Below are positions 32,573 to 64,000 of a DNA stretch of 64,000 bases, one piece after another (position 1 is the stretch's first letter; every line of letters begins with the position of its first letter). The notes below the pieces were generated by a model, which was given only the letters and a program-made list of their open reading frames with translations, did no database searches and was not told the DNA's origin. This DNA comes from Escherichia phage FEC19, in sequence record MH816966; one strand, written 5' to 3'. The position numbers and the translations under genes are program-made.

Positions 32573-33217
32573 TTACATAACTGCTAGTGCATCCTTGTAA
32601 CGCTTCCGTCGCAAATCCCCATGGTTAGCCGTATTCGGCGCGGCCCCGTTAATCCGCTTCACGGTCGAATCAAATGCACCCGCATCGGCAAGTGGAATGC
32701 AACCGCTGTTCTTGAAGAACCACGCTGCGCTGTCAGCGATGTATTTCGGCTCAGTCAAAATGTCAGGGTTATTCAAGGCGTCATACCCTGATTGCTTTGA
32801 ATACTCTGCATAGTTATCCTTTCCAGTCAGCTGAATGGCACCACGGCCACGGTACTTCCAACCGTCGCCAGATGCTACCGAACCATTTCCCATTCGGTTT
32901 GCATATGTATTATTGGCGATTTCCATTGGTTTACGGGCAATCGACAACGCCAAGGAGTTTGGTGCGCCACCGAAACGACCGCTGACGCTGTAACGGCTAG
33001 GCCACGTGTTGGCAAGACCCTGTGCAGAGTAGTTGAGATTTTCCACAAATGTTCTCAAGCTGCCTGTCTCTACTCCTACGTTTGCAAGGAATGCCGCGAT
33101 GGCATTCTTGCTTTTGATTCCGTAGTGCTCACAAGCCTGCTTGAAAGGGTCCACCCATTTCTCTGCGACATCCATGCTGCATCCGGTCCCTTTAGATATT
33201 ACGTTTGCATTAATCAT
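32573..33217 (-). CDS. endolysin, glycoside hydrolase family 19-like
   Basis: AIAAFLANVGVETGSL and GRGAIQLTG motifs typical of GH19 lysins. Confidence 0.75.
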   Translation of the reverse strand: MINANVISKGTGCSMDVAEKWVDPFKQACEHYGIKSKNAIAAFLANVGVETGSLRTFVENLNYSAQGLANTWPSRYSVSGRFGGAPNSLALSIARKPMEIANNTYANRMGNGSVASGDGWKYRGRGAIQLTGKDNYAEYSKQSGYDALNNPDILTEPKYIADSAAWFFKNSGCIPLADAGAFDSTVKRINGAAPNTANHGDLRRKRYKDALAVM

Positions 33218-33225
33218 AAATCACC

Positions 33226-35013
33226 TTATGCGCTTCTGTACCAGCCGTTCAAGACGACATATCGCGGCAGAGTTGAAACAGCCGTTGGGACGGACTGCCC
33301 TGCATCGCCAGTGTTACCGACCACATCGTGAGTGTGAGCGGGGAGGGTATATCCATGGCTGTGATTGCCAGCGTAATTTATATTCAACCCATGAGTGTGT
33401 GACCCAGAAGATTGAATATTGTGAACGTGGTTGCCGTTAGTTGAGGTGTTGTATTTATAGTTGTCCCAGTCGCCGCCCTTTCGACTTCCGAAGTTGTTGT
33501 GCGTCCCATCATACACGCCATACCGCGCATCATTCGTATTTGCTTCACCCCAGCTACTGTCATGGTGGTGGTTGCCTGCTGAATCCATTCCGTGCACGTG
33601 AGCACCGTTTTGACTGGTATCGCCTGTGTGGTTATGGTTGCCTGCGTCTCCAGTGGTATTGGACCATGGACCACTCTGTCGCGTAGTTATGTTCACGCTG
33701 TGATTGTGCAGAGGAAGCATGGCGGCGGTAAGAGTAACAGAGTCTGCACCTCCAGTGTCAAGACCGTTTCTTGCCGTGCCAGACGTCCTGATGACCATGT
33801 TATCAGGCAACCTGGTCCATACCTGACCGTAAGCGCCCAGTTTAGTATTTGGGTTAGTGCCATTAGTCAAGAATCGAGTCTCACCGACTTCGAATACATC
33901 ACCCATAGTTATCAACTTCGCGGCCAAAGCATCGAGTTGGCGCTTTGTGACAAACTGTTGCGGCTCACTAGCATCGACACCGATTTGCGCCGCGCCGAAT
34001 GCTTGAAGAAGACGCCAAACGGTGCCGTCATAAATAATAGTAAAAGGAAGAAGACCGACGATGGACCCTGCTGGCAGCTCGCCGCCGTCGAATCCAAGGA
34101 CTGCAACTTTGTTTGCACCAATGGTCACGGTAACAGGTCCGGTGGTCGTTACATCATTGACAATTGTCAGGCGACTACCTGCTGACGGAGGCCATGAATA
34201 ACCTGCTGGAACGGTAAGGATTATATCTTGTGCGCCTTTACCTGATGCAAGATTCGGCGTTCCAATTTGCACGTCTTGAACAGTTGCATTTTGAATCCAA
34301 GCACTCCAAGCGCCAGACGTATAAGAGCGGGTGAAAACATATCCGTTCATTGACGTGTATTGTTGCAGGGCGAAAGTCTGCGCATTAACCTGCCAAGCGC
34401 AAACCTGGAGACGACCTGCAACCTTCGTCGCACCAACCGCGTTCGGGATGTTAGAGCAGAGAGCGGCGACTGCGTCAGATTGAATAACAATAGTTGTGGA
34501 AGTCGTGATATTATCAAAGTCCACAAAGTTTGAAATCAGTCCGCGAACAAAATACGGGTTTTGCGCATCGCCGCCAGCAGGCATAGGAATATATTTTCGC
34601 GCTTCGCTAGGCAGCGTCAATTCCTGCCAAGATTCCGTTTCGCCGTTAGCTGGGACTGCGCTGGTGTTGCCGTCAACCACGCTCTGGAAAATGCGCCATT
34701 CAGGCGCTGAAGGGGTGCCAGAGTTGCTTACAACGATGGCATTTTTCGGGTATCCATCTGGCTTCAAGTCAGACGAGAAATACTGTTGAGCGCCGTGGTC
34801 CTGGATGAACATAAGGTTGTCGGTGATCAGATTCAGCAACCAGTTCATCGACTCACGTTCAACTGCTTTCGCGGCGACGTTTCCGGCTTCCAGCGCAAGT
34901 GCATAGTCAGGGGTGTAGCCGCGCTGGAAGTTCACATAACCGCTTGGACTTGCATCCGGCACCACGGATACATCACCGCTTTGCGCGAAAGGTCTGTTAA
35001 TAAGTGTTGGCAT
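33226..35013 (-). CDS. tail fiber protein with C-terminal His-rich HxH repeats
   Basis: N-terminal fiber-like region; C-terminus with many HxH/HNH triplets; GAGGA RBS before trimmed start. Confidence 0.7.
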   Translation of the reverse strand: MPTLINRPFAQSGDVSVVPDASPSGYVNFQRGYTPDYALALEAGNVAAKAVERESMNWLLNLITDNLMFIQDHGAQQYFSSDLKPDGYPKNAIVVSNSGTPSAPEWRIFQSVVDGNTSAVPANGETESWQELTLPSEARKYIPMPAGGDAQNPYFVRGLISNFVDFDNITTSTTIVIQSDAVAALCSNIPNAVGATKVAGRLQVCAWQVNAQTFALQQYTSMNGYVFTRSYTSGAWSAWIQNATVQDVQIGTPNLASGKGAQDIILTVPAGYSWPPSAGSRLTIVNDVTTTGPVTVTIGANKVAVLGFDGGELPAGSIVGLLPFTIIYDGTVWRLLQAFGAAQIGVDASEPQQFVTKRQLDALAAKLITMGDVFEVGETRFLTNGTNPNTKLGAYGQVWTRLPDNMVIRTSGTARNGLDTGGADSVTLTAAMLPLHNHSVNITTRQSGPWSNTTGDAGNHNHTGDTSQNGAHVHGMDSAGNHHHDSSWGEANTNDARYGVYDGTHNNFGSRKGGDWDNYKYNTSTNGNHVHNIQSSGSHTHGLNINYAGNHSHGYTLPAHTHDVVGNTGDAGQSVPTAVSTLPRYVVLNGWYRSA

Positions 35014-35023
35014 TGCCGTTCCT

Positions 35024-37762
35024 CTACACGATGTATTTAATTTTTGATAAAAGGGTTGATGCCCAATCACCAGTTAAGTCAGTTATGTTCATGCTTGAAA
35101 CATAACCACCAGCAGCACTTCTCGGAAAGTTTACTGTTGCTACAACATCACCATTAGAAGCAATCAATTGAATTCCAGTGGCAAGTGATCCTGGGTTTTT
35201 GATGTATATAGAAGTCGCAGTTTTCTTTGCGAAATCTTCGCTTGTTGAAATTGCAAGCGCATTCATCGTACTACCAGACACAAGCATCAAGCTTAAAATA
35301 TCAAGTTCAAGAGTCGTACCAACTTCGGTCGGCAAGTCTTTCCCTGATATCAAACCGATGCTGATGCCGCCTGTCGATCCATCCCAGGTAGAGCCTTCAA
35401 CAATCTCAGCGGCAAGGTCAATTTCGATACGTTGCAAATCACCTGCGCCTATGTTGTAGAATTTAGGGATATAGCCACCCATCCCATCCGGTACAGTTAC
35501 AAAAAGTTTTTGACCGTTAACCGTGTTGTTTTTGACTATTGCGATAAACGACAAAGGGCCAGTCAGGGTGCCAGTGTATTTAGTAGCAAGTACAGCGCGT
35601 GCATAACCGGACGCTGGCACAGTCCCTATTGTAGCGGAAAGCTTGAATGATGGGAACTGGTTGGGCACACCGCTGATTGGCGTCGCTGTGACAGTGTTTA
35701 CGCCATCCTCAATGATATTGCCAAAAGATGTACCGTCGTTTGGCTGTGTGTAGCGCCAATAGTTAGTGATTGCCGTGCGTGGTATTTCACGACCAAAGTC
35801 ATCTCTTGATGCTTTTGAGATTGAATAGTCGTTGACAAGCGCGCCGTCGACGACCTGGTTCACACCTTTCAAAGATTCAAGCTGGCGTATCACACCGTTG
35901 AAGTTGTTCAGCGGCCACTCGTTAATGCCGCCAACTCTGATGATACCGTCAGTGTTAATCCACGCAACACCTTCCGTTTCAAATCCTACGCGCGTGTCTG
36001 TTATGTCGCTGACAGTCAAATCGATATCAGATAAGTCTGCGACTTCTTGGTAAAGCTGCCATCGTATTCCGGCATTTGCTGGCAAGAATCCTTCATTCCT
36101 GTCGCCAACTAGCGTCTTAAAGTTGTCAGACAGGTTGTTGGCGAAATAAGGTCCGATGACGTATTCCATGTAATAGTCGGCGGTCGGAGGCGGCGGTACT
36201 CCATCCAGCCTGCTAACGTTCCATGAGCGTCTGATTCCATCAGTCTCTGCAATCAGCGTGGCGTTCCCTGGGTACGGGTAGCCGCCGATTGAGCCAGAGT
36301 ATGCAAGTGATGAGCCAGGTTGCATGAATGACTCGCCAACTACACCGTTTCTTGTCGTCAGCGGTCCGTTTGCACAGGAGATGTTATTGAGCGTTCCCGC
36401 CGTTACAGACAGGATTGCTGTTCCGTCAGAAGGAGGGTTTTGCGTTCCATAAAAATAAGGCTCAGGCCCATTTGGATTCTGAACAGGGTCGCAGACGCAA
36501 ATCGAGTATCCAAACAAAAGGGCATCAGACCCTTCAGGCAATTCACGAGTTTGAGTTGATCCAGCGGCAGTCGCCTTCAACTCTATTGAAAAGCTGGTAC
36601 TTACTCCAGAAGCAGCGGTTGCCGTCTGCTCTACAATCCAGATTCGATACCAATCGCCGCCAATTGCTTTTATGCCACCACGGTTTGATTCCCTTCTTAC
36701 TCCATCGAATTTGCCTTTGATGAAATAGCTCAATGACGGGTCCAAGTTGAACTGGCCAGTGACGGGGTCAAACAGCTTTCCATTACTCGATGCATCACTA
36801 TTCTCTGTAACAGAAACAGAAGCGACGTTTTCAGAAAGCACCTTTATGTAGAAGCTATAGCAAACGTTGACGCCAGCCTGCGAAGGAAGCGAAATTGATT
36901 TGGCACTTGGATTATTGGCCAAAGAATACACAGGCTCACCGCTTGAAGCCGTCTTGATGACCCTTACTGCGTTGGCAAAATTCTCTATGGCCTCGCCTGG
37001 GTAATCGCCACACAACTGCCCATAGTAATCAGGCCCACCATACTGTCTGGTATCGCCGCCGACAAGCCCTGCGCCGGAACCATTTCCCCATGAGTACCAA
37101 TCTGGGTGCGCCATCCGTGACACGGTGCCTGACACTCCGCTGATGGTCAGCCCGGCGTTGTTGCCATGGCTTAAAAGTATCTGCTTATAATCATGCTGAA
37201 TCTCAGTTGACCCCTGCCAGTCGTACAGAAGGAATGAGCCATTGGTTGATTCAGACGAAGACACCGCGCCTTGAGTATTGTCGGTCACATATGCGTAGCG
37301 TGATGAAGAGTAATCCCAAGACTCTCCACGGTTGAAAATCCACTTAAGCATGCGGTTGATACTTTCGATGCGGCCATCACTTGTAAGCGTCAGATAACGA
37401 AGCTTAAGAAGTATGCGCGCTTCTTCGATATTCTTTACAACCTTCCCGCCAGCACCAAAGAAGTTGCCGCCGATGTTGTCCGCACCTTCAAAGTTGTCGC
37501 GCGTCGGTCCAAACGCCCAGTTGTGCTCATAATTGCTTAAGTCCACAAAGTCTCTTGGTATGCAAAGAATGTCGCACCAAATATAAATTCCCATTGCATC
37601 ACAAGTGTCAATGTTAAAAATGTTATTGTACCAGTCAGTCCAAAACTGATCTTGGTATCTTTCATACCAGTCACTTTTCTTTTGCACCAAAGATGTAATG
37701 TTTGGTGCATTGTTCTGCATCCACTTAAGGTTTTGCAACAGGTTTGTGTCAAACTTTTGCAT
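35024..37762 (-). CDS. large tail/baseplate-associated structural protein
   Basis: 912-aa ORF within tail module. Confidence 0.5.
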   Translation of the reverse strand: MQKFDTNLLQNLKWMQNNAPNITSLVQKKSDWYERYQDQFWTDWYNNIFNIDTCDAMGIYIWCDILCIPRDFVDLSNYEHNWAFGPTRDNFEGADNIGGNFFGAGGKVVKNIEEARILLKLRYLTLTSDGRIESINRMLKWIFNRGESWDYSSSRYAYVTDNTQGAVSSSESTNGSFLLYDWQGSTEIQHDYKQILLSHGNNAGLTISGVSGTVSRMAHPDWYSWGNGSGAGLVGGDTRQYGGPDYYGQLCGDYPGEAIENFANAVRVIKTASSGEPVYSLANNPSAKSISLPSQAGVNVCYSFYIKVLSENVASVSVTENSDASSNGKLFDPVTGQFNLDPSLSYFIKGKFDGVRRESNRGGIKAIGGDWYRIWIVEQTATAASGVSTSFSIELKATAAGSTQTRELPEGSDALLFGYSICVCDPVQNPNGPEPYFYGTQNPPSDGTAILSVTAGTLNNISCANGPLTTRNGVVGESFMQPGSSLAYSGSIGGYPYPGNATLIAETDGIRRSWNVSRLDGVPPPPTADYYMEYVIGPYFANNLSDNFKTLVGDRNEGFLPANAGIRWQLYQEVADLSDIDLTVSDITDTRVGFETEGVAWINTDGIIRVGGINEWPLNNFNGVIRQLESLKGVNQVVDGALVNDYSISKASRDDFGREIPRTAITNYWRYTQPNDGTSFGNIIEDGVNTVTATPISGVPNQFPSFKLSATIGTVPASGYARAVLATKYTGTLTGPLSFIAIVKNNTVNGQKLFVTVPDGMGGYIPKFYNIGAGDLQRIEIDLAAEIVEGSTWDGSTGGISIGLISGKDLPTEVGTTLELDILSLMLVSGSTMNALAISTSEDFAKKTATSIYIKNPGSLATGIQLIASNGDVVATVNFPRSAAGGYVSSMNITDLTGDWASTLLSKIKYIV

Positions 37763-56474: not shown

Positions 56475-58850
56475 TCAACCTTGCTTCGGTGAATTAGTAG
56501 GATTATTGAGTGCTCCGTATGCTTGAGAGCAATCACCCTTCAACCACTCTTTGAATGAGTTCACATCTAATTCGTGGATTGAGTCGAATCCGTTCCAACC
56601 GTTACCAAATGATGCCTGATAAGCTTCTTTTGCTTCTTCTGCTGAATCGAATCCAAGCATGCACTTGTGTTCATCGAACTCGCCAGAGTAGTTATCGTTT
56701 TGGTTCACGATAAAGACCTTCGGCGACTTCAGATTTGTGCCAACAAAGCAGTCGACTTCATCGCCGTCCGCGCCCTTGGTGCCTTTGATGAATCCGTAGT
56801 GGTGCGGCATCTTGACTGCCCATTCACCGTCAAGGCTGTTTCCTCTACGGATGCTGTTGCGAGGATTCTCAATCCCAAGAATCAGCCCATGCAACTTCAT
56901 CTTAGGTAATGATGCTGCGTCCATCTTTCCAACGTTGTGTCGTAAGTTGACGACATTACCTTTGACGCTTGGAAGGGTAGACGGTTGCACCGACCGTGAA
57001 TCTTTTTGAGGGTCAAAATCCACATCCTGACCTTCTTTCAGGTAGTAATCCGCAATACCCTCCAGACCTTCTTTCAACTGCGTTAGGACATCAACCTGAT
57101 GGCTTGATTCATCGTCGGTATCGTCCATGTTGATTTCGACAGGCGCTCTGTCAGGGTTTTCCGCCAACTCACCGCGCGCGGCACCTTCTGGCATAATGCC
57201 TGTTTCACTGTAGAACTGGCCGCCCATCTTAACGACATCAGCTTTCGCCTGTTCAATATCGGCCTTACCTTGTAGGACTTCACCAGCAGACTTGCCAAGC
57301 AATGCCATATTCTCTGGAGACATCCCTGGTGTTTCTTCTGCCGCATCTTCCGGCAGACGGTTGTAGCCGCTGTTTTTGTCGTCTTTGATGCGGTCGCGCT
57401 CTTCATCAGGAGAAATGACGCCAGCATCAATAAGAGTTTTGCCAGTGTTGGCTCGCTTATCATTGATTTCTGCAAGTTGAGTAGCAGTAAGTGAGCCAAC
57501 TGGTTCCCATGCAACCTTAACATCGACATCCACCCCTTCTGATTTGAGAAGGATTTTGTAATGGCGGTCGAGAATTTTTGTCAGGTCATGCTGCTGGCAC
57601 GTTTCCAACTCTTCGTGATAGCTGACCATCTCGAATTCACCAGTGGCGTTAAAGCCTTTTGGCGAAGTCCCAAGCAGTTTGGTCGACGGAACTTTTGCGA
57701 TTGCGGCCACCAGCTGGTACTGGTTCATGATGATGCTGTCGAAGTCTGACAAGTTGATATCAAACTGGTCCATCTCTTCTTTTTGGCCAAGCACTTTGAC
57801 TGCATAGTTGTCGCGGTACTTGATCCACATCATCAGACGTTCTGCAAAAGACCGCTCATTGGCAATCGCCTTGTCAACGTCGGTCCGCAGCGTGGTTGTA
57901 CGCTTGGACATCGCCAGCAATGGCGCTTCGTTAGCGGTACGTTCAGCGGCATAGATGCGTTCATAAATCTGCTGAGTCAGAGGAATGCCGCCGTAAATAT
58001 AAGTTGGCTTGAGAATATCAGCTGGCTCATCATTGCGCAAGATGATGAGGTGACTTCGATGATAACGTTGTCCACTGATCACCCAGTATTCTGGATCATA
58101 GAAGTGCTGTGATGCAGGGTCGGCGGTGTTTTCAGACGTCAAAAATGGCATCATCCAATAAGGGTCGACCTGAATGATTCCCTTATAAGACCCCTTTGTC
58201 ACACCATCAATGTTAAAAGGCTTGCTGTAATATTCTGGGTCATCGCTACGCACATCAAATATGATGACGCGGATACCAAAAATATTTTTGAATCGTTCGG
58301 CTTCAACTAAGTGCTCTTTGATATTAAATTCTTTATCAATTTGCTTTAGGCGTTCGCTTGCCTGTACTGACAATTCTGACTCAGAACTGGATTTGACTTC
58401 CCATCCTTTACGGACCGCATCGCGGCCTACCATGGAACAAGCCTTGTTCACCAGCCAGTGCTGCGCGATGATGGCGCAAGCTTGATATCCGATAAATGAT
58501 TGCGATAAGTACCAGTTTTGCAACTGAATAGGTACTGTGTATGGGTTGACTTGCCCTTCTGAACTGATGTTCTTTAAGGCATTATCCATAACTTTTTTGG
58601 ATACTGTTGCGGAATCGACTGAGCGACCTTTTATGATTGCAACACCATCGCCATTAATATCAGGCTCATATAAAGGGAAGTCATCAACCGTTTTAAAGGT
58701 CGGTCGATTGCTTTCAGTCTTTTCCCAGCGTTGACCGCTGCCGCGCCTTTCAAGGCGTTCAAACGGTGCCAATGGGTCGCCTGGCGGCATCTCCGCTGGT
58801 TCGGCTTCTGGTTGCGTCTTCTCCCAGAGTTTTATGCCAAGAATTTTCAT
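56475..58850 (-). CDS. portal protein with C-terminal extension
   Basis: 792 aa between terminase and MuF; AGGTGG RBS before trimmed start MKILGIK. Confidence 0.65.
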   Translation of the reverse strand: MKILGIKLWEKTQPEAEPAEMPPGDPLAPFERLERRGSGQRWEKTESNRPTFKTVDDFPLYEPDINGDGVAIIKGRSVDSATVSKKVMDNALKNISSEGQVNPYTVPIQLQNWYLSQSFIGYQACAIIAQHWLVNKACSMVGRDAVRKGWEVKSSSESELSVQASERLKQIDKEFNIKEHLVEAERFKNIFGIRVIIFDVRSDDPEYYSKPFNIDGVTKGSYKGIIQVDPYWMMPFLTSENTADPASQHFYDPEYWVISGQRYHRSHLIILRNDEPADILKPTYIYGGIPLTQQIYERIYAAERTANEAPLLAMSKRTTTLRTDVDKAIANERSFAERLMMWIKYRDNYAVKVLGQKEEMDQFDINLSDFDSIIMNQYQLVAAIAKVPSTKLLGTSPKGFNATGEFEMVSYHEELETCQQHDLTKILDRHYKILLKSEGVDVDVKVAWEPVGSLTATQLAEINDKRANTGKTLIDAGVISPDEERDRIKDDKNSGYNRLPEDAAEETPGMSPENMALLGKSAGEVLQGKADIEQAKADVVKMGGQFYSETGIMPEGAARGELAENPDRAPVEINMDDTDDESSHQVDVLTQLKEGLEGIADYYLKEGQDVDFDPQKDSRSVQPSTLPSVKGNVVNLRHNVGKMDAASLPKMKLHGLILGIENPRNSIRRGNSLDGEWAVKMPHHYGFIKGTKGADGDEVDCFVGTNLKSPKVFIVNQNDNYSGEFDEHKCMLGFDSAEEAKEAYQASFGNGWNGFDSIHELDVNSFKEWLKGDCSQAYGALNNPTNSPKQG

Positions 58851-58956
58851 TGTTAACGCCACCTGACAGTGAAAGGGAATCAATCTATATTATAAATATT
58901 CATGTGTTTGTAAGCAAATGATATGTATGGTGATCATAAATAGTTCATAAAATATT

Positions 58957-62542: not shown

Positions 62543-64000
62543 ATGCCAAGGCTAATATTCAAAAACAACTTTGAGGTCGCGCTTGCTCAGCCAACGACGA
62601 CTTCAGACACCACAATTACAATCCGCTCAGGGTCGGGCTTTCCGACCTTGGCCGCAAACGAGCGTGTAGTGGCGACAATCGTCGACGCTGCAACAGGCCT
62701 CCAATTCGAAATCATCACAGTAACAGCCGTCGTTGGTGATGTCCTGACCGTTCAGCGTGCACAGGAAGGGACTGCAGCGCGTGCATGGGCGGCTGGCGAC
62801 ATGCTTTCCATTCGAACAACTGCTGCGACTTTGACGGGTACTGTCCGAAACTTTGGCGTAATTCCTAATGGAGTAAACCTTAACGCGCTGAACGGAAGCT
62901 GGTTCGGGCAGTATTACCAACTGGCTGATTCTGGGGCATCAATATCACTCAACTATCCTGTCGCACAAGCGGGAATACTTGAAGTTTTACAAACGGGAGT
63001 TTCAACGAACGGATGTGTTCAGCGATACACACCTTACAACACTAACACTGTATACCAGAGGCTGTATAATGCCATCACATCAACTTGGTCTGATTGGGTT
63101 CAAGTTTATAATACGCAAAGCGTTATACCAGTCGCAAATGGCGGTACAGGACAAACGACCATCCAAGGGATGAAGTCTGCTTTTGGATTCGGAACGGTCG
63201 CTGATCAAAACATTGTTCCCACTTCAATGGGCGGTACGGGATCAGCAGACAATGCGCAGGCATGGCTTAACATTCGTCCACAAGGGTCGACTCCGCTGGC
63301 TGGCGACCCTGTGAATGATTATGATGCCGCAACTAAGCGTTGGGTTGAGAACTTAGTAAATACTGGCACCGTTGGCCCAAGCATGAACGGTGTTATGAAC
63401 TATGGCGTCGGTGACTTCCACTTACGCGACAGTCGTGCTTATATTCAACCATATGAAGTCGTTGCTGATGGGCAGTTGTTAAACCGCGCTGACTGGCCTG
63501 AACTTTGGGCGTATGCGCAAATGCTTTCTCCTATTGCTGATGCCGACTGGCTTGCTGACCCAGCGAAACGCGGCAAGTATTCACTTGGTAATGGCACAAC
63601 GACATTCCGTGTACCAGACAGAAATGGTGTCCAGACCGGTTCCATACAAGCCTTATTTGGCAGGGGTGACGGCGGTAATTCATCGGCCAACGGAGTCGTT
63701 TCTGAGTCAGGTGCACCAAATATAACTTACTCCGCGCCGCACACAATGGTCACGTTGGCTTCTGCGCCAAGTCAGGTGGCGACTAATGGCGCTTTTCAGT
63801 CGATCACTTCTGGGGACTCTCCAGCAGCAGCAGGTTCTGGTTCAAGATTCATACAAACAAACTTTGACGCTTCTCGATCAAGCCCTGTATACGGAAGATC
63901 AGCAGCGGAAATCGTTCCGCGTAACTTTGTTGGCGTTTGGGTGATTCGTGCATCGGGTGGCTTTGTTGCCGCGAATACGACTTGGAGCGTTATTAATGGT
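62543..64000 (+). CDS. tail fiber protein with tail-collar-like domain, 3'-truncated at window edge
   Basis: Own translation: VANGGTGQTT, PTSMGGTGSADNAQAWLNIRP, DYDAATKRWVEN, LLNRADWPELWAYA...GNGTTFRVPDRNG. Confidence 0.65.
   Translation, partial: MPRLIFKNNFEVALAQPTTTSDTTITIRSGSGFPTLAANERVVATIVDAATGLQFEIITVTAVVGDVLTVQRAQEGTAARAWAAGDMLSIRTTAATLTGTVRNFGVIPNGVNLNALNGSWFGQYYQLADSGASISLNYPVAQAGILEVLQTGVSTNGCVQRYTPYNTNTVYQRLYNAITSTWSDWVQVYNTQSVIPVANGGTGQTTIQGMKSAFGFGTVADQNIVPTSMGGTGSADNAQAWLNIRPQGSTPLAGDPVNDYDAATKRWVENLVNTGTVGPSMNGVMNYGVGDFHLRDSRAYIQPYEVVADGQLLNRADWPELWAYAQMLSPIADADWLADPAKRGKYSLGNGTTTFRVPDRNGVQTGSIQALFGRGDGGNSSANGVVSESGAPNITYSAPHTMVTLASAPSQVATNGAFQSITSGDSPAAAGSGSRFIQTNFDASRSSPVYGRSAAEIVPRNFVGVWVIRASGGFVAANTTWSVING

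What the first reader, a model, noticed from the sequence alone, without database searches (positions are those of the whole stretch)
33226..35013. Tail fiber with dense His-x-His repeats at the C-terminal tip
The last ~130 residues contain many HxH/HNH triplets (HNHSVN, GNHNHTG, AHVHGM, GNHHHDS, GNHVHN, SHTHGL, NHSHGY, AHTHDV). Such repeats are known in distal tail-fiber tips where they coordinate metal ions in a beta-helical needle; this marks the receptor-binding tip.
Basis: partly seen in the sequence, partly recalled or inferred. Interest (0 to 1): 0.35.

Follow-up and report, generated by a model that had tools for sequence, protein, structure and literature searches.

The report
Wifcevirus tail fibre with T4-like His-x-His needle
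This is the conserved side tail fibre of a Wifcevirus E. coli phage; its far end looks like the metal-stapled, histidine-rich needle known from phage T4's long tail fibre, and this has already been published for this phage genus, so the finding is correct but ordinary.

Summary
The gene lies on the minus strand (33226-35013, 595 aa). It has eight His-x-His motifs between residues 436 and 562. 18 of its 19 histidines lie in the last 160 residues. No other ORF in the window has more than one such motif.

The window is a Wifcevirus myophage, 98.6% identical in DNA to phage Bas98.

- **Anchor:** residues 2-372 match the baseplate-anchoring part of the Pseudomonas phage Pa193 fibre gp47 (PDB 9B45).
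- **Tip:** residues ~372-595 match the collar-needle-head tip of T4 gp37 (PDB 2XGF; hmmsearch E 4e-12, hhalign 98.5%).
- **Layout:** four motifs run outward, then a 43-residue His-poor head (485-528), then four motifs run back. The distal tip is therefore the head, not the C-terminus.
- **Conservation:** all 16 motif histidines are invariant in eight orthologues, while the middle residue varies.

Metal binding and receptor binding are inferred, not shown. The only structure prediction available here was a monomer, and it was uninformative.

Humolli et al. 2025 (PMC11990801) already describe this Wifcevirus fibre as having a T4 gp37-like tip with conserved HxH motifs. Verdict: already known, low interest.

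The parts
33226..35013 (-). Complete tail-fibre CDS (595 aa plus stop); orthologue of Bas98_0031 and Bas99_0031, both annotated 'tail protein'
   Evidence: ORF list and translation. 98.6% nt identity to Bas98 and 27 Wifcevirus records with full-length matches. PHROG 5717 'tail protein', E 3e-175.
35020..35023 (-). Shine-Dalgarno AGGA, 6 nt upstream of the ATG; overlaps the end of the upstream gene
   Evidence: Read directly from the sequence.
33901..35013 (-). aa 1-371: N-terminal baseplate anchor and proximal 'bead' domains, Pbunavirus gp47 type
   Evidence: phmmer hit to PDB 9B45 gp47 tail fibre, E 5.9e-32, query 2-372 to chain 4-368. The docking residues Ile41/Leu43 of Pa193 gp47 align with Leu39/Leu41. 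dN/dS 0.023.
33709..33900 (-). aa 372-435: collar domain, N-terminal part, ending in the conserved TGGADSVTLT..LP motif just before the first HxH
   Evidence: Family-wide conserved columns. Homologues carry Pfam Gp10_C (PF21939) or Collar over this stretch. It is the only part of the AF2 monomer model with pLDDT 75-84. Boundaries are approximate.
33562..33708 (-). aa 436-484: outward (ascending) needle strand with four HxH motifs (436, 460, 472, 482)
   Evidence: Motif positions. Three of the four (436, 460, 472) align to T4 gp37 HxH 883/915/929; 482-484 falls in an insert state with no T4 partner. The His are invariant in 8 orthologues.
33430..33561 (-). aa 485-528: His-poor head domain, the inferred distal receptor-contacting end
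   Evidence: It lies between HxH 4 and 5, as the head of T4 gp37 lies between HxH 929 and 966. It falls in the most variable stretch among orthologues: 17 of the 47 variable alignment columns lie in the two 25-residue windows 476-525. dN is 0.10 and dS 1.5, against about 0.01-0.04 and 0.3-0.5 elsewhere. It is 58-69% identical to the heads of Xenorhabdus and Photorhabdus fibres.
33289..33429 (-). aa 529-575: returning (descending) needle strand with four HxH motifs (529, 539, 551, 560)
   Evidence: Motif positions. In hhalign, 529, 539 and 560 align to T4 gp37 HxH 966/980/989; 551-553 is an insert with no T4 partner, and T4 998 has no partner here. In the separate MAFFT alignment of 120 distant homologues, His 551/553 and 560/562 are present in 120 of 120.
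33229..33288 (-). aa 576-595: C-terminal strand that returns to the collar (…LPRYVVLNGWYRSA)
   Evidence: Aligns with the C-terminal …NIAFNYIVRLA of T4 gp37. GWYRSA is nearly invariant among the Enterobacterales homologues.
35024..37762 (-). Upstream gene (912 aa): baseplate triplex wedge protein, the inferred docking partner of the fibre
   Evidence: aa 4-185 match Pa193 gp46 (PDB 9B45, E 2e-41) and E217 gp45. The match includes the aromatic residues of the fibre-attachment loop described in PMC11456595. Pfam DUF2612.

Best explanation
The gene encodes the conserved side tail fibre of a Wifcevirus myophage, and it is presumably a homotrimer.

The first ~370 residues are the Pbunavirus-type anchor. 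It docks three chains onto a loop of the baseplate triplex wedge protein, which is encoded immediately upstream.

The last ~225 residues are a T4 gp37-type collar-needle-head module. After the collar (372-435) each chain runs outward (436-484), forms a small head (485-528) at the distal end, and runs back (529-575). The C-terminus (576-595) then packs into the collar again. The needle would therefore be a thin six-stranded trimeric tube.

Each His-x-His motif is expected to point both histidines at the three-fold axis. Three chains would give six ligands, an octahedral site for a divalent ion (Fe2+ in T4 gp37). Eight motifs predict up to eight ions stacked along the axis, which would staple and stiffen a needle too thin to have a hydrophobic core. 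The head is the part that would touch the cell surface.

This fibre is nearly invariant across the genus, while a second, T-shaped fibre is hypervariable. It therefore most likely binds a conserved surface structure or acts in a later, mechanical or triggering step, rather than setting strain specificity.

Shown here: the motifs, their non-random density, homology of both halves to solved structures, the 4 + head + 4 layout, and His invariance. Inferred: trimer, metal occupancy, identity of the metal, and receptor contact.
For: - **Motif density:** far above chance and unique in the window.
- **Phage identity:** a Wifcevirus, with orthologues in 27 records.
- **N-terminus:** residues 2-372 match PDB 9B45 gp47 at E 5.9e-32. 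The docking hydrophobics are conserved. The upstream gene matches gp46, including its attachment loop.
- **C-terminus:** the profile hits PDB 2XGF at E 3.9e-12. hhalign gives 98.5%, E 2.7e-15. Six of T4's seven HxH motifs align with six of the eight here, and the alignment runs to the C-terminal residue.
- **Needle length:** 49 aa out and 68 aa back, almost the same as T4 gp37 (50 and 66).
- **Matched extension:** relative to its closest-head relatives (Xenorhabdus, 2 + 2 HxH, 27 aa out and 44 back), this needle is longer by two motifs and about 22-24 aa on both the outward and the returning segment. That is what an out-and-back hairpin requires.
- **Conservation:** all 16 motif His are invariant in 8 orthologues while x varies (N/S, V/S, H/Y). 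The one non-motif His (505) varies. In 120 distant homologues, His 472/474, 551/553 and 560/562 are present in 100% and 436/438 in 96%. dN/dS is 0.02-0.10 throughout.
- **Literature:** the same reading is published for the Bas99 orthologue. The collar-needle-head architecture with HxH is described for Felixounavirus fibres, which are ~30% identical to this domain.
Against: - Pfam and NCBIfam do not recognise the C-terminal domain.
- The profile hits have strong compositional bias (G/S/T/N/H-rich repeats), so their E-values are probably optimistic. The plain pairwise BLAST to the gp37 tip reaches only E 7e-4.
- T4 gp37 needs the chaperones gp38 and gp57A. No chaperone gene is adjacent here, since the next gene is the endolysin, and none was recognised in the annotated tail region of Bas98 that was inspected (genes 1-44).
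- No experiment links this fibre to a receptor or to metal.
Confidence: 0.85

Rival explanations
1. The C-terminal domain is a T4 gp12-type short-tail-fibre receptor-binding domain. It would have a single zinc site formed by one HxH per chain, and the other HxH motifs would be incidental.
For: The only Pfam signal for the domain is a faint match to S_tail_recep_bd (PF14928) over residues 481-529, at E 0.48-0.79 and 10.5-11.2 bits. The fibre is short (595 aa), conserved, and possibly acts after primary O-antigen binding, as T4 gp12 does.
Against: The Pfam score is far below the 23.8-bit cut-off. No gp12 chain appears among the PDB profile hits even at E <= 10, whereas gp37 (2XGF) is the top hit at E 4e-12. 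All eight HxH motifs, not one, are invariant in orthologues, and four to five are conserved across 120 distant homologues.
Confidence: 0.05
2. The HxH-rich needle is structural only and the protein is not a receptor-binding protein. It would be a baseplate strut or trigger element (compare T4 gp10, whose C-terminal domain family PF21939 labels the homologues). All host recognition would then be done by the T-shaped fibre.
For: Homologues carry Pfam Gp10_C and some are named 'phage baseplate protein'. The protein is 95-99.7% identical across the genus, with dN/dS about 0.05. Humolli et al. suggest a 'more mechanical role'.
Against: The N-terminus matches a fibre seen as a ~500 Å fibre on Pa193 virions. 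Gp10_C corresponds only to the collar. T4 gp10 has no HxH needle, and it scores only E 0.06-0.6 against the profile. Among orthologues the head is the most variable part and shows signs of recombinational exchange (dS 1.5 against 0.4), which is typical of a surface-contacting element. Homologous gp37-type heads contact receptors in T4.
Confidence: 0.1

Closest known systems
Conserved 'second' tail fibre of Wifcevirus phages (called Gp32 of ManiWeber/Bas99 in Humolli et al. 2025, PLoS Biol, PMC11990801)
   Same: It is the orthologue: 91% nt and 96% aa identity to Bas99_0031, in the same position between the wedge gene and the endolysin. [quoted passage not shown]
   Different: Essentially nothing. 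The paper's gene number (Gp32) is offset by one from the GenBank locus tag (Bas99_0031; 0032 is the endolysin). The identification therefore rests on the description plus the fact that only one ORF in the genome window is HxH-rich.
T4 gp37 long-tail-fibre receptor-binding tip (PDB 2XGF; collar, needle and head domains with seven Fe ions on HxH motifs)
   Same: There is profile-level homology from the collar to the C-terminus. Both have an out-and-back layout with HxH motifs on both segments and a His-poor head between them. The needle lengths are nearly identical: 49/68 aa here against 50/66 aa in T4.
   Different: This protein has eight motifs (4 + 4) rather than seven (3 + 4), and a 43-aa head rather than about 28 aa, with no detectable head similarity. 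Here the module sits directly on a ~370-aa baseplate anchor, not at the end of a four-protein, ~1,450 Å fibre. No gp38- or gp57A-like chaperone gene is adjacent. Pairwise identity is only about 27%.
Pseudomonas phage Pa193 / Pbunavirus tail fibre gp47 (PDB 9B45)
   Same: Residues 2-372 are homologous at E 5.9e-32. The docking hydrophobics are conserved. The upstream gene is homologous to the partner wedge protein gp46. The gene order is the same.
   Different: Pa193 gp47 is 962 aa, and its distal ~600 residues do not align. The Wifcevirus protein replaces them with the 225-aa HxH collar-needle-head module.
Felixounavirus (Bas63, Felix O1-like) long and short tail fibres, and Enterobacterales prophage fibres with Gp10_C collar plus HxH needle
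   Same: The C-terminal module is the same, at 27-39% identity over about 98% of the domain. The published Bas63 structure describes collar, six-stranded needle with HxH, and head. The head itself is 58-69% identical to those of Xenorhabdus and Photorhabdus fibres.
   Different: The N-terminal anchors differ. Most of the 120 homologues have 4-6 HxH (range 3-13), against 8 here. The motifs at 482/484 and 539/541 are insertions almost unique to the Wifcevirus lineage.

Membership tests
T4 gp37-type collar-needle-head fibre tip (PDB 2XGF) | Detectable sequence or profile homology to the solved tip | tested here: met
   hmmsearch of the profile against PDB puts 2XGF first at E 3.9e-12. hhalign gives 98.5%, E 2.7e-15 over 151 columns. 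Compositional bias is high, and pairwise BLAST reaches only E 7e-4.
T4 gp37-type collar-needle-head fibre tip (PDB 2XGF) | Several HxH motifs on both an outward and a returning segment, flanking a His-poor head, with the C-terminus back at the collar | tested here: met
   The layout is 4 HxH (436-484), a 43-aa head with no HxH, then 4 HxH (529-562). T4 has 3 + 4. The C-terminal strand aligns with that of T4. The outward and returning segments are elongated by matching amounts relative to 2 + 2 relatives.
T4 gp37-type collar-needle-head fibre tip (PDB 2XGF) | Motif histidines conserved as metal ligands while the intervening residue is free to vary | tested here: met
   16 of 16 His are invariant in 8 orthologues. 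The x residue varies at 3 motifs, and the non-motif His505 varies. Four motifs are 96-100% conserved in 120 distant homologues.
T4 gp37-type collar-needle-head fibre tip (PDB 2XGF) | Intertwined trimeric needle with the His side chains facing the three-fold axis | tested here: inconclusive
T4 gp37-type collar-needle-head fibre tip (PDB 2XGF) | Bound Fe2+ (or another divalent metal) at each HxH layer | not testable with these tools
   This needs metal analysis or an experimental structure.
Pbunavirus gp47-type baseplate-attached tail fibre (PDB 9B45) | N-terminal anchor and bead domains homologous to gp47 residues 1-340 | tested here: met
   phmmer E 5.9e-32, query 2-372 to chain 4-368.
Pbunavirus gp47-type baseplate-attached tail fibre (PDB 9B45) | A partner triplex wedge protein with a fibre-attachment loop, encoded alongside | tested here: met
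   Residues 4-185 of the upstream 912-aa protein match gp46 at E 2e-41. The aligned stretch includes the W/F residues of the loop.
Pbunavirus gp47-type baseplate-attached tail fibre (PDB 9B45) | A homologous distal shaft and receptor-binding end | tested here: not met
   Nothing beyond residue 372 aligns significantly with gp47. The distal half is a different module.
T4 gp12 short-tail-fibre receptor-binding domain (Pfam PF14928) | Match to the family model above its cut-off | tested here: not met
   10.5-11.2 bits against a cut-off of 23.8. No gp12 chain appears among the PDB profile hits at E <= 10.
Pfam Gp10_C (PF21939) / Collar (PF07484) domain | Match to the family model | tested here: inconclusive
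   The window protein itself gives no hit. Homologues at 28-39% identity do carry PF21939 or PF07484 over the aligned collar. T4 gp10 chains score only E 0.06-0.6 against the profile.

The most novel reading that the evidence does not exclude
The genus-wide conserved HxH-needle fibre might be the functional equivalent of a short tail fibre. It would bind a conserved inner structure such as the LPS core after the variable T-shaped fibre has engaged O-antigen. Its head type is shared with Xenorhabdus and Photorhabdus fibres and exchanged by recombination. The needle length may be tuned by adding HxH layers in matched pairs on the outward and returning strands. The needle may also fold without a dedicated chaperone. 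None of this is excluded by the evidence here, but each point would be only an incremental addition to known fibre biology.
Probability: 0.3. Interest if true: 0.3.

Novelty: already known. Interest (0 to 1): 0.12.

Why it matters
It matters little beyond correct annotation. Most GenBank records call this gene 'hypothetical protein' or 'tail protein', and Pfam and NCBIfam do not recognise its C-terminal domain. A precise domain map (anchor, collar, 4 + 4 HxH needle, head at residues 485-528) is therefore useful to anyone engineering Wifcevirus host range or purifying the fibre. Biologically it is one more example of the modular gp37-type tip grafted onto a different baseplate anchor. The open practical question is what the conserved head binds.

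Tried and rejected
- **Family libraries:** Pfam on the whole protein and on the C-terminal domain alone, plus NCBIfam, gave nothing above threshold.
- **First homologue search:** the search with the C-terminal domain did not return the Wifcevirus orthologues themselves, only relatives at <= 39% identity. The orthologues were taken from the phage collection instead.
- **Genomic context of the closest head homologue:** the Xenorhabdus bovienii gene is an orphan fibre gene with no prophage or chaperone nearby, so it gave no information on chaperone need.
- **HNH-nuclease reading of the 'HNH' triplets:** considered and rejected. The triplets are HxH with a variable middle residue, they sit in a G/S/T/N-rich fibre repeat, and there is no nuclease family hit.
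- **L004 (ECP_WGS_SA1):** left out of the conservation analysis because the record contains runs of N.

Full report
**1. Observation**

The interval 33226-35013 holds a single ORF on the minus strand. Its ATG is at 35013, preceded by AGGA 6 nt upstream. The stop is at 33226-33228 and the product is 595 aa.

The HxH motifs start at residues 436, 460, 472, 482 (HHH), 529, 539, 551 and 560. 18 of the 19 histidines fall between 436 and 562.

The density is far above chance:
- Shuffling the whole protein gives a mean of 0.58 motifs, and 0 of 20,000 shuffles reached 8.
- Shuffling only the His-rich last 165 residues gives a mean of 1.8, and 2 of 20,000 reached 8.
- Of 112 ORFs of at least 100 aa in all six frames of the window, no other has more than one HxH.

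Two details need adding: the gene is on the minus strand, and the motifs are arranged 4 + 4 around a 43-residue His-poor segment.

**2. What the window is**

The gene is 98.6% identical in DNA to Bas98_0031 of Escherichia phage HermannAdler. Full-length matches at 87-98% occur in 27 records, all Wifcevirus myophages of E. coli or Shigella.

The gene order is the same as in Bas98 and Bas99: baseplate wedge (J-like), a 912-aa 'hypothetical' protein, this gene, then a GH19 endolysin.

**3. N-terminal half**

Residues 2-372 match residues 4-368 of the tail fibre gp47 of Pseudomonas phage Pa193 (PDB 9B45) at E 5.9e-32. In Pa193 this part forms three 'beads'. Loops at residues 38-52 dock onto the fibre-attachment loop of the triplex wedge protein gp46 through Ile41 and Leu43 (PMC11456595). 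The ungapped alignment puts Leu39 and Leu41 at those positions.

Residues 4-185 of the upstream 912-aa protein match Pa193 gp46 at E 2e-41. The match includes the aromatic residues of the attachment loop.

This protein is therefore the baseplate-attached side fibre of a Pbunavirus-like baseplate. Nothing beyond residue 372 aligns with gp47.

**4. C-terminal half**

Pfam, NCBIfam and a single-sequence PDB search do not recognise residues 372-595. PHROGs place them in tail-fibre families.

A database search with this domain found relatives at 28-39% identity, and a profile search found at least 1,702. Most are prophage tail fibres of Enterobacterales that carry Pfam Gp10_C (a collar domain) and tail-fibre repeats. 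In phage genomes the domain recurs at about 30% identity in Felixounavirus fibres.

A profile of the domain with nine homologues hits the crystal structure of the T4 gp37 long-tail-fibre tip (2XGF) at E 3.9e-12. The next hit is the Anabaena phage A-1(L) long tail fibre (8KEC, E 5e-5), followed only weakly by T4 gp10.

hhalign against the gp37 tip gives 98.5% probability and E 2.7e-15. It aligns from the end of the collar to the last residue. These sequences are compositionally biased, and a plain pairwise BLAST reaches only E 7e-4. I therefore treat the homology as well supported, but not at face-value significance.

**5. Anatomy**

T4 gp37 has seven HxH motifs: three before its head (883, 915, 929) and four after it (966, 980, 989, 998). 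In T4 the chain runs out along the needle, forms the head and doubles back, and the HxH motifs coordinate iron along the axis. That description is from PMC12609058. The domain limits of 2XGF are from my own recollection of the 2010 structure paper.

The layout of the window protein:

| Segment | Residues | HxH motifs |
|---|---|---|
| Collar | 372-435 | none |
| Outward strand | 436-484 | 4 |
| Head | 485-528 | none |
| Return strand | 529-575 | 4 |
| C-terminal strand (…GWYRSA) | 576-595 | none |

The C-terminal strand aligns with T4's …YIVRLA.

Segment lengths compared:

| Protein | Outward | Return | HxH |
|---|---|---|---|
| This protein | 49 aa | 68 aa | 4 + 4 |
| T4 gp37 | 50 aa | 66 aa | 3 + 4 |
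| Closest-head relatives (Xenorhabdus) | 27 aa | 44 aa | 2 + 2 |

Relative to those Xenorhabdus relatives, the Wifcevirus needle is longer by two motifs and 22-24 residues on both segments. An out-and-back hairpin requires exactly this kind of matched extension. It is the best indirect evidence for the topology that I could obtain.

**6. Conservation**

In eight Wifcevirus orthologues (95.3-99.7% aa identity):
- All 16 motif histidines are invariant.
- The middle residue varies (N/S at 461, V/S at 473, H/Y at 483).
- The single non-motif histidine, His505, varies.

In 120 distant homologues:

| Motif His | Present in |
|---|---|
| 472/474, 551/553, 560/562 | 100% |
| 436/438 | 96% |
| 529/531 | 75% |
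| 482/484 | 3 of 120; a gap (lineage-specific insertion) in the other 117 |
| 539/541 | 0 of 120; a gap (lineage-specific insertion) in all 120 |

The count of HxH per homologue ranges from 3 to 13, with a mode of 5.

dN/dS is 0.02-0.10 in every segment. The head is the most variable part. Its dS is also about 3-5 times higher than elsewhere (1.5 against 0.27-0.54; 0.45 for the whole gene). This points to exchange of head alleles by recombination rather than relaxed selection. The head is 58-69% identical to the heads of Xenorhabdus and Photorhabdus fibre proteins.

**7. Structure prediction**

**8. Literature**

Humolli et al. 2025 (PMC11990801) state that Wifcevirus phages carry two tail fibres.
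- This fibre is highly conserved across the genus, and they suggest 'a more mechanical role'.
- The other, T-shaped fibre, with a gp12-like and a T5-like receptor-binding domain, is variable and is proposed to target O-antigen.

The GenBank locus tag of the orthologue is Bas99_0031. The paper's numbering is offset: its T-shaped 'Gp114' is Bas99_0109. The description fits only this gene.

The N-terminal 485 residues of the T-shaped fibre are encoded at 62543-64000 (+) and are cut by the end of the window.

Korf et al. 2019 (PMC6563267) note 7-9 HxH repeats in the gp37 of T-even phages. Eight motifs is therefore within the known range.

**9. Verdict**

The protein is a trimeric baseplate fibre whose distal module is a gp37-type, probably metal-stapled needle.

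Refinements:
- The distal tip is the head at residues 485-528, not the C-terminus.
- Metal and receptor binding are inferred.
- This is the conserved fibre, probably not the host-range determinant.

The feature has already been described for this genus, so novelty is 'already known' and interest is low.

Noticed in passing
window 35024-37762 (-): This 912-aa 'hypothetical' protein has residues 4-185 homologous to the Pa193 gp46 / E217 gp45 triplex wedge protein (E 2e-41; Pfam DUF2612). It is about 400 aa longer than those proteins, and most of residues 186-912 match nothing solved apart from a weak, non-significant stretch at 509-572. The extra mass might be where the second (T-shaped) fibre attaches, or it might be an additional binding domain.
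   Followed up: partly
window 62543-64000 (+): This is the N-terminal 485 residues of the second, T-shaped Wifcevirus tail fibre, 88% identical to Bas99_0109. The gene runs off the end of the window, so its variable receptor-binding domains are missing.
   Followed up: partly
window 33430-33561 (-), fibre residues 485-528: Among eight Wifcevirus orthologues, the head codons show dS about 1.5 against 0.3-0.5 in the rest of the gene. There are two or three distinct head alleles. This suggests recombinational exchange of just the head cassette.
   Followed up: partly
window 32573-33217 (-): A GH19 (chitinase-like) endolysin starts 8 nt after the fibre's stop codon. No tail-fibre chaperone gene lies next to the gp37-like needle, unlike T4, which has gp38. 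Other Wifcevirus records annotate a shorter endolysin (603 nt) that starts about 50 nt downstream.
   Followed up: no
L012 6001-6933 (Xenorhabdus bovienii contig JBPFGP010000006.1): The closest non-Wifcevirus relative of the head is a 310-aa fibre with 2 + 2 HxH. It is an orphan gene beside an AlpA-like gene and SrfB/VWA genes, with no prophage or tailocin cluster around it.
   Followed up: no
window 56475-58883 (-): This 802-aa portal-like or minor head protein carries a C-terminal domain of about 130 aa (residues 661-790). The same domain occurs in DarB-like and giant virion proteins in PHROGs.
   Followed up: no
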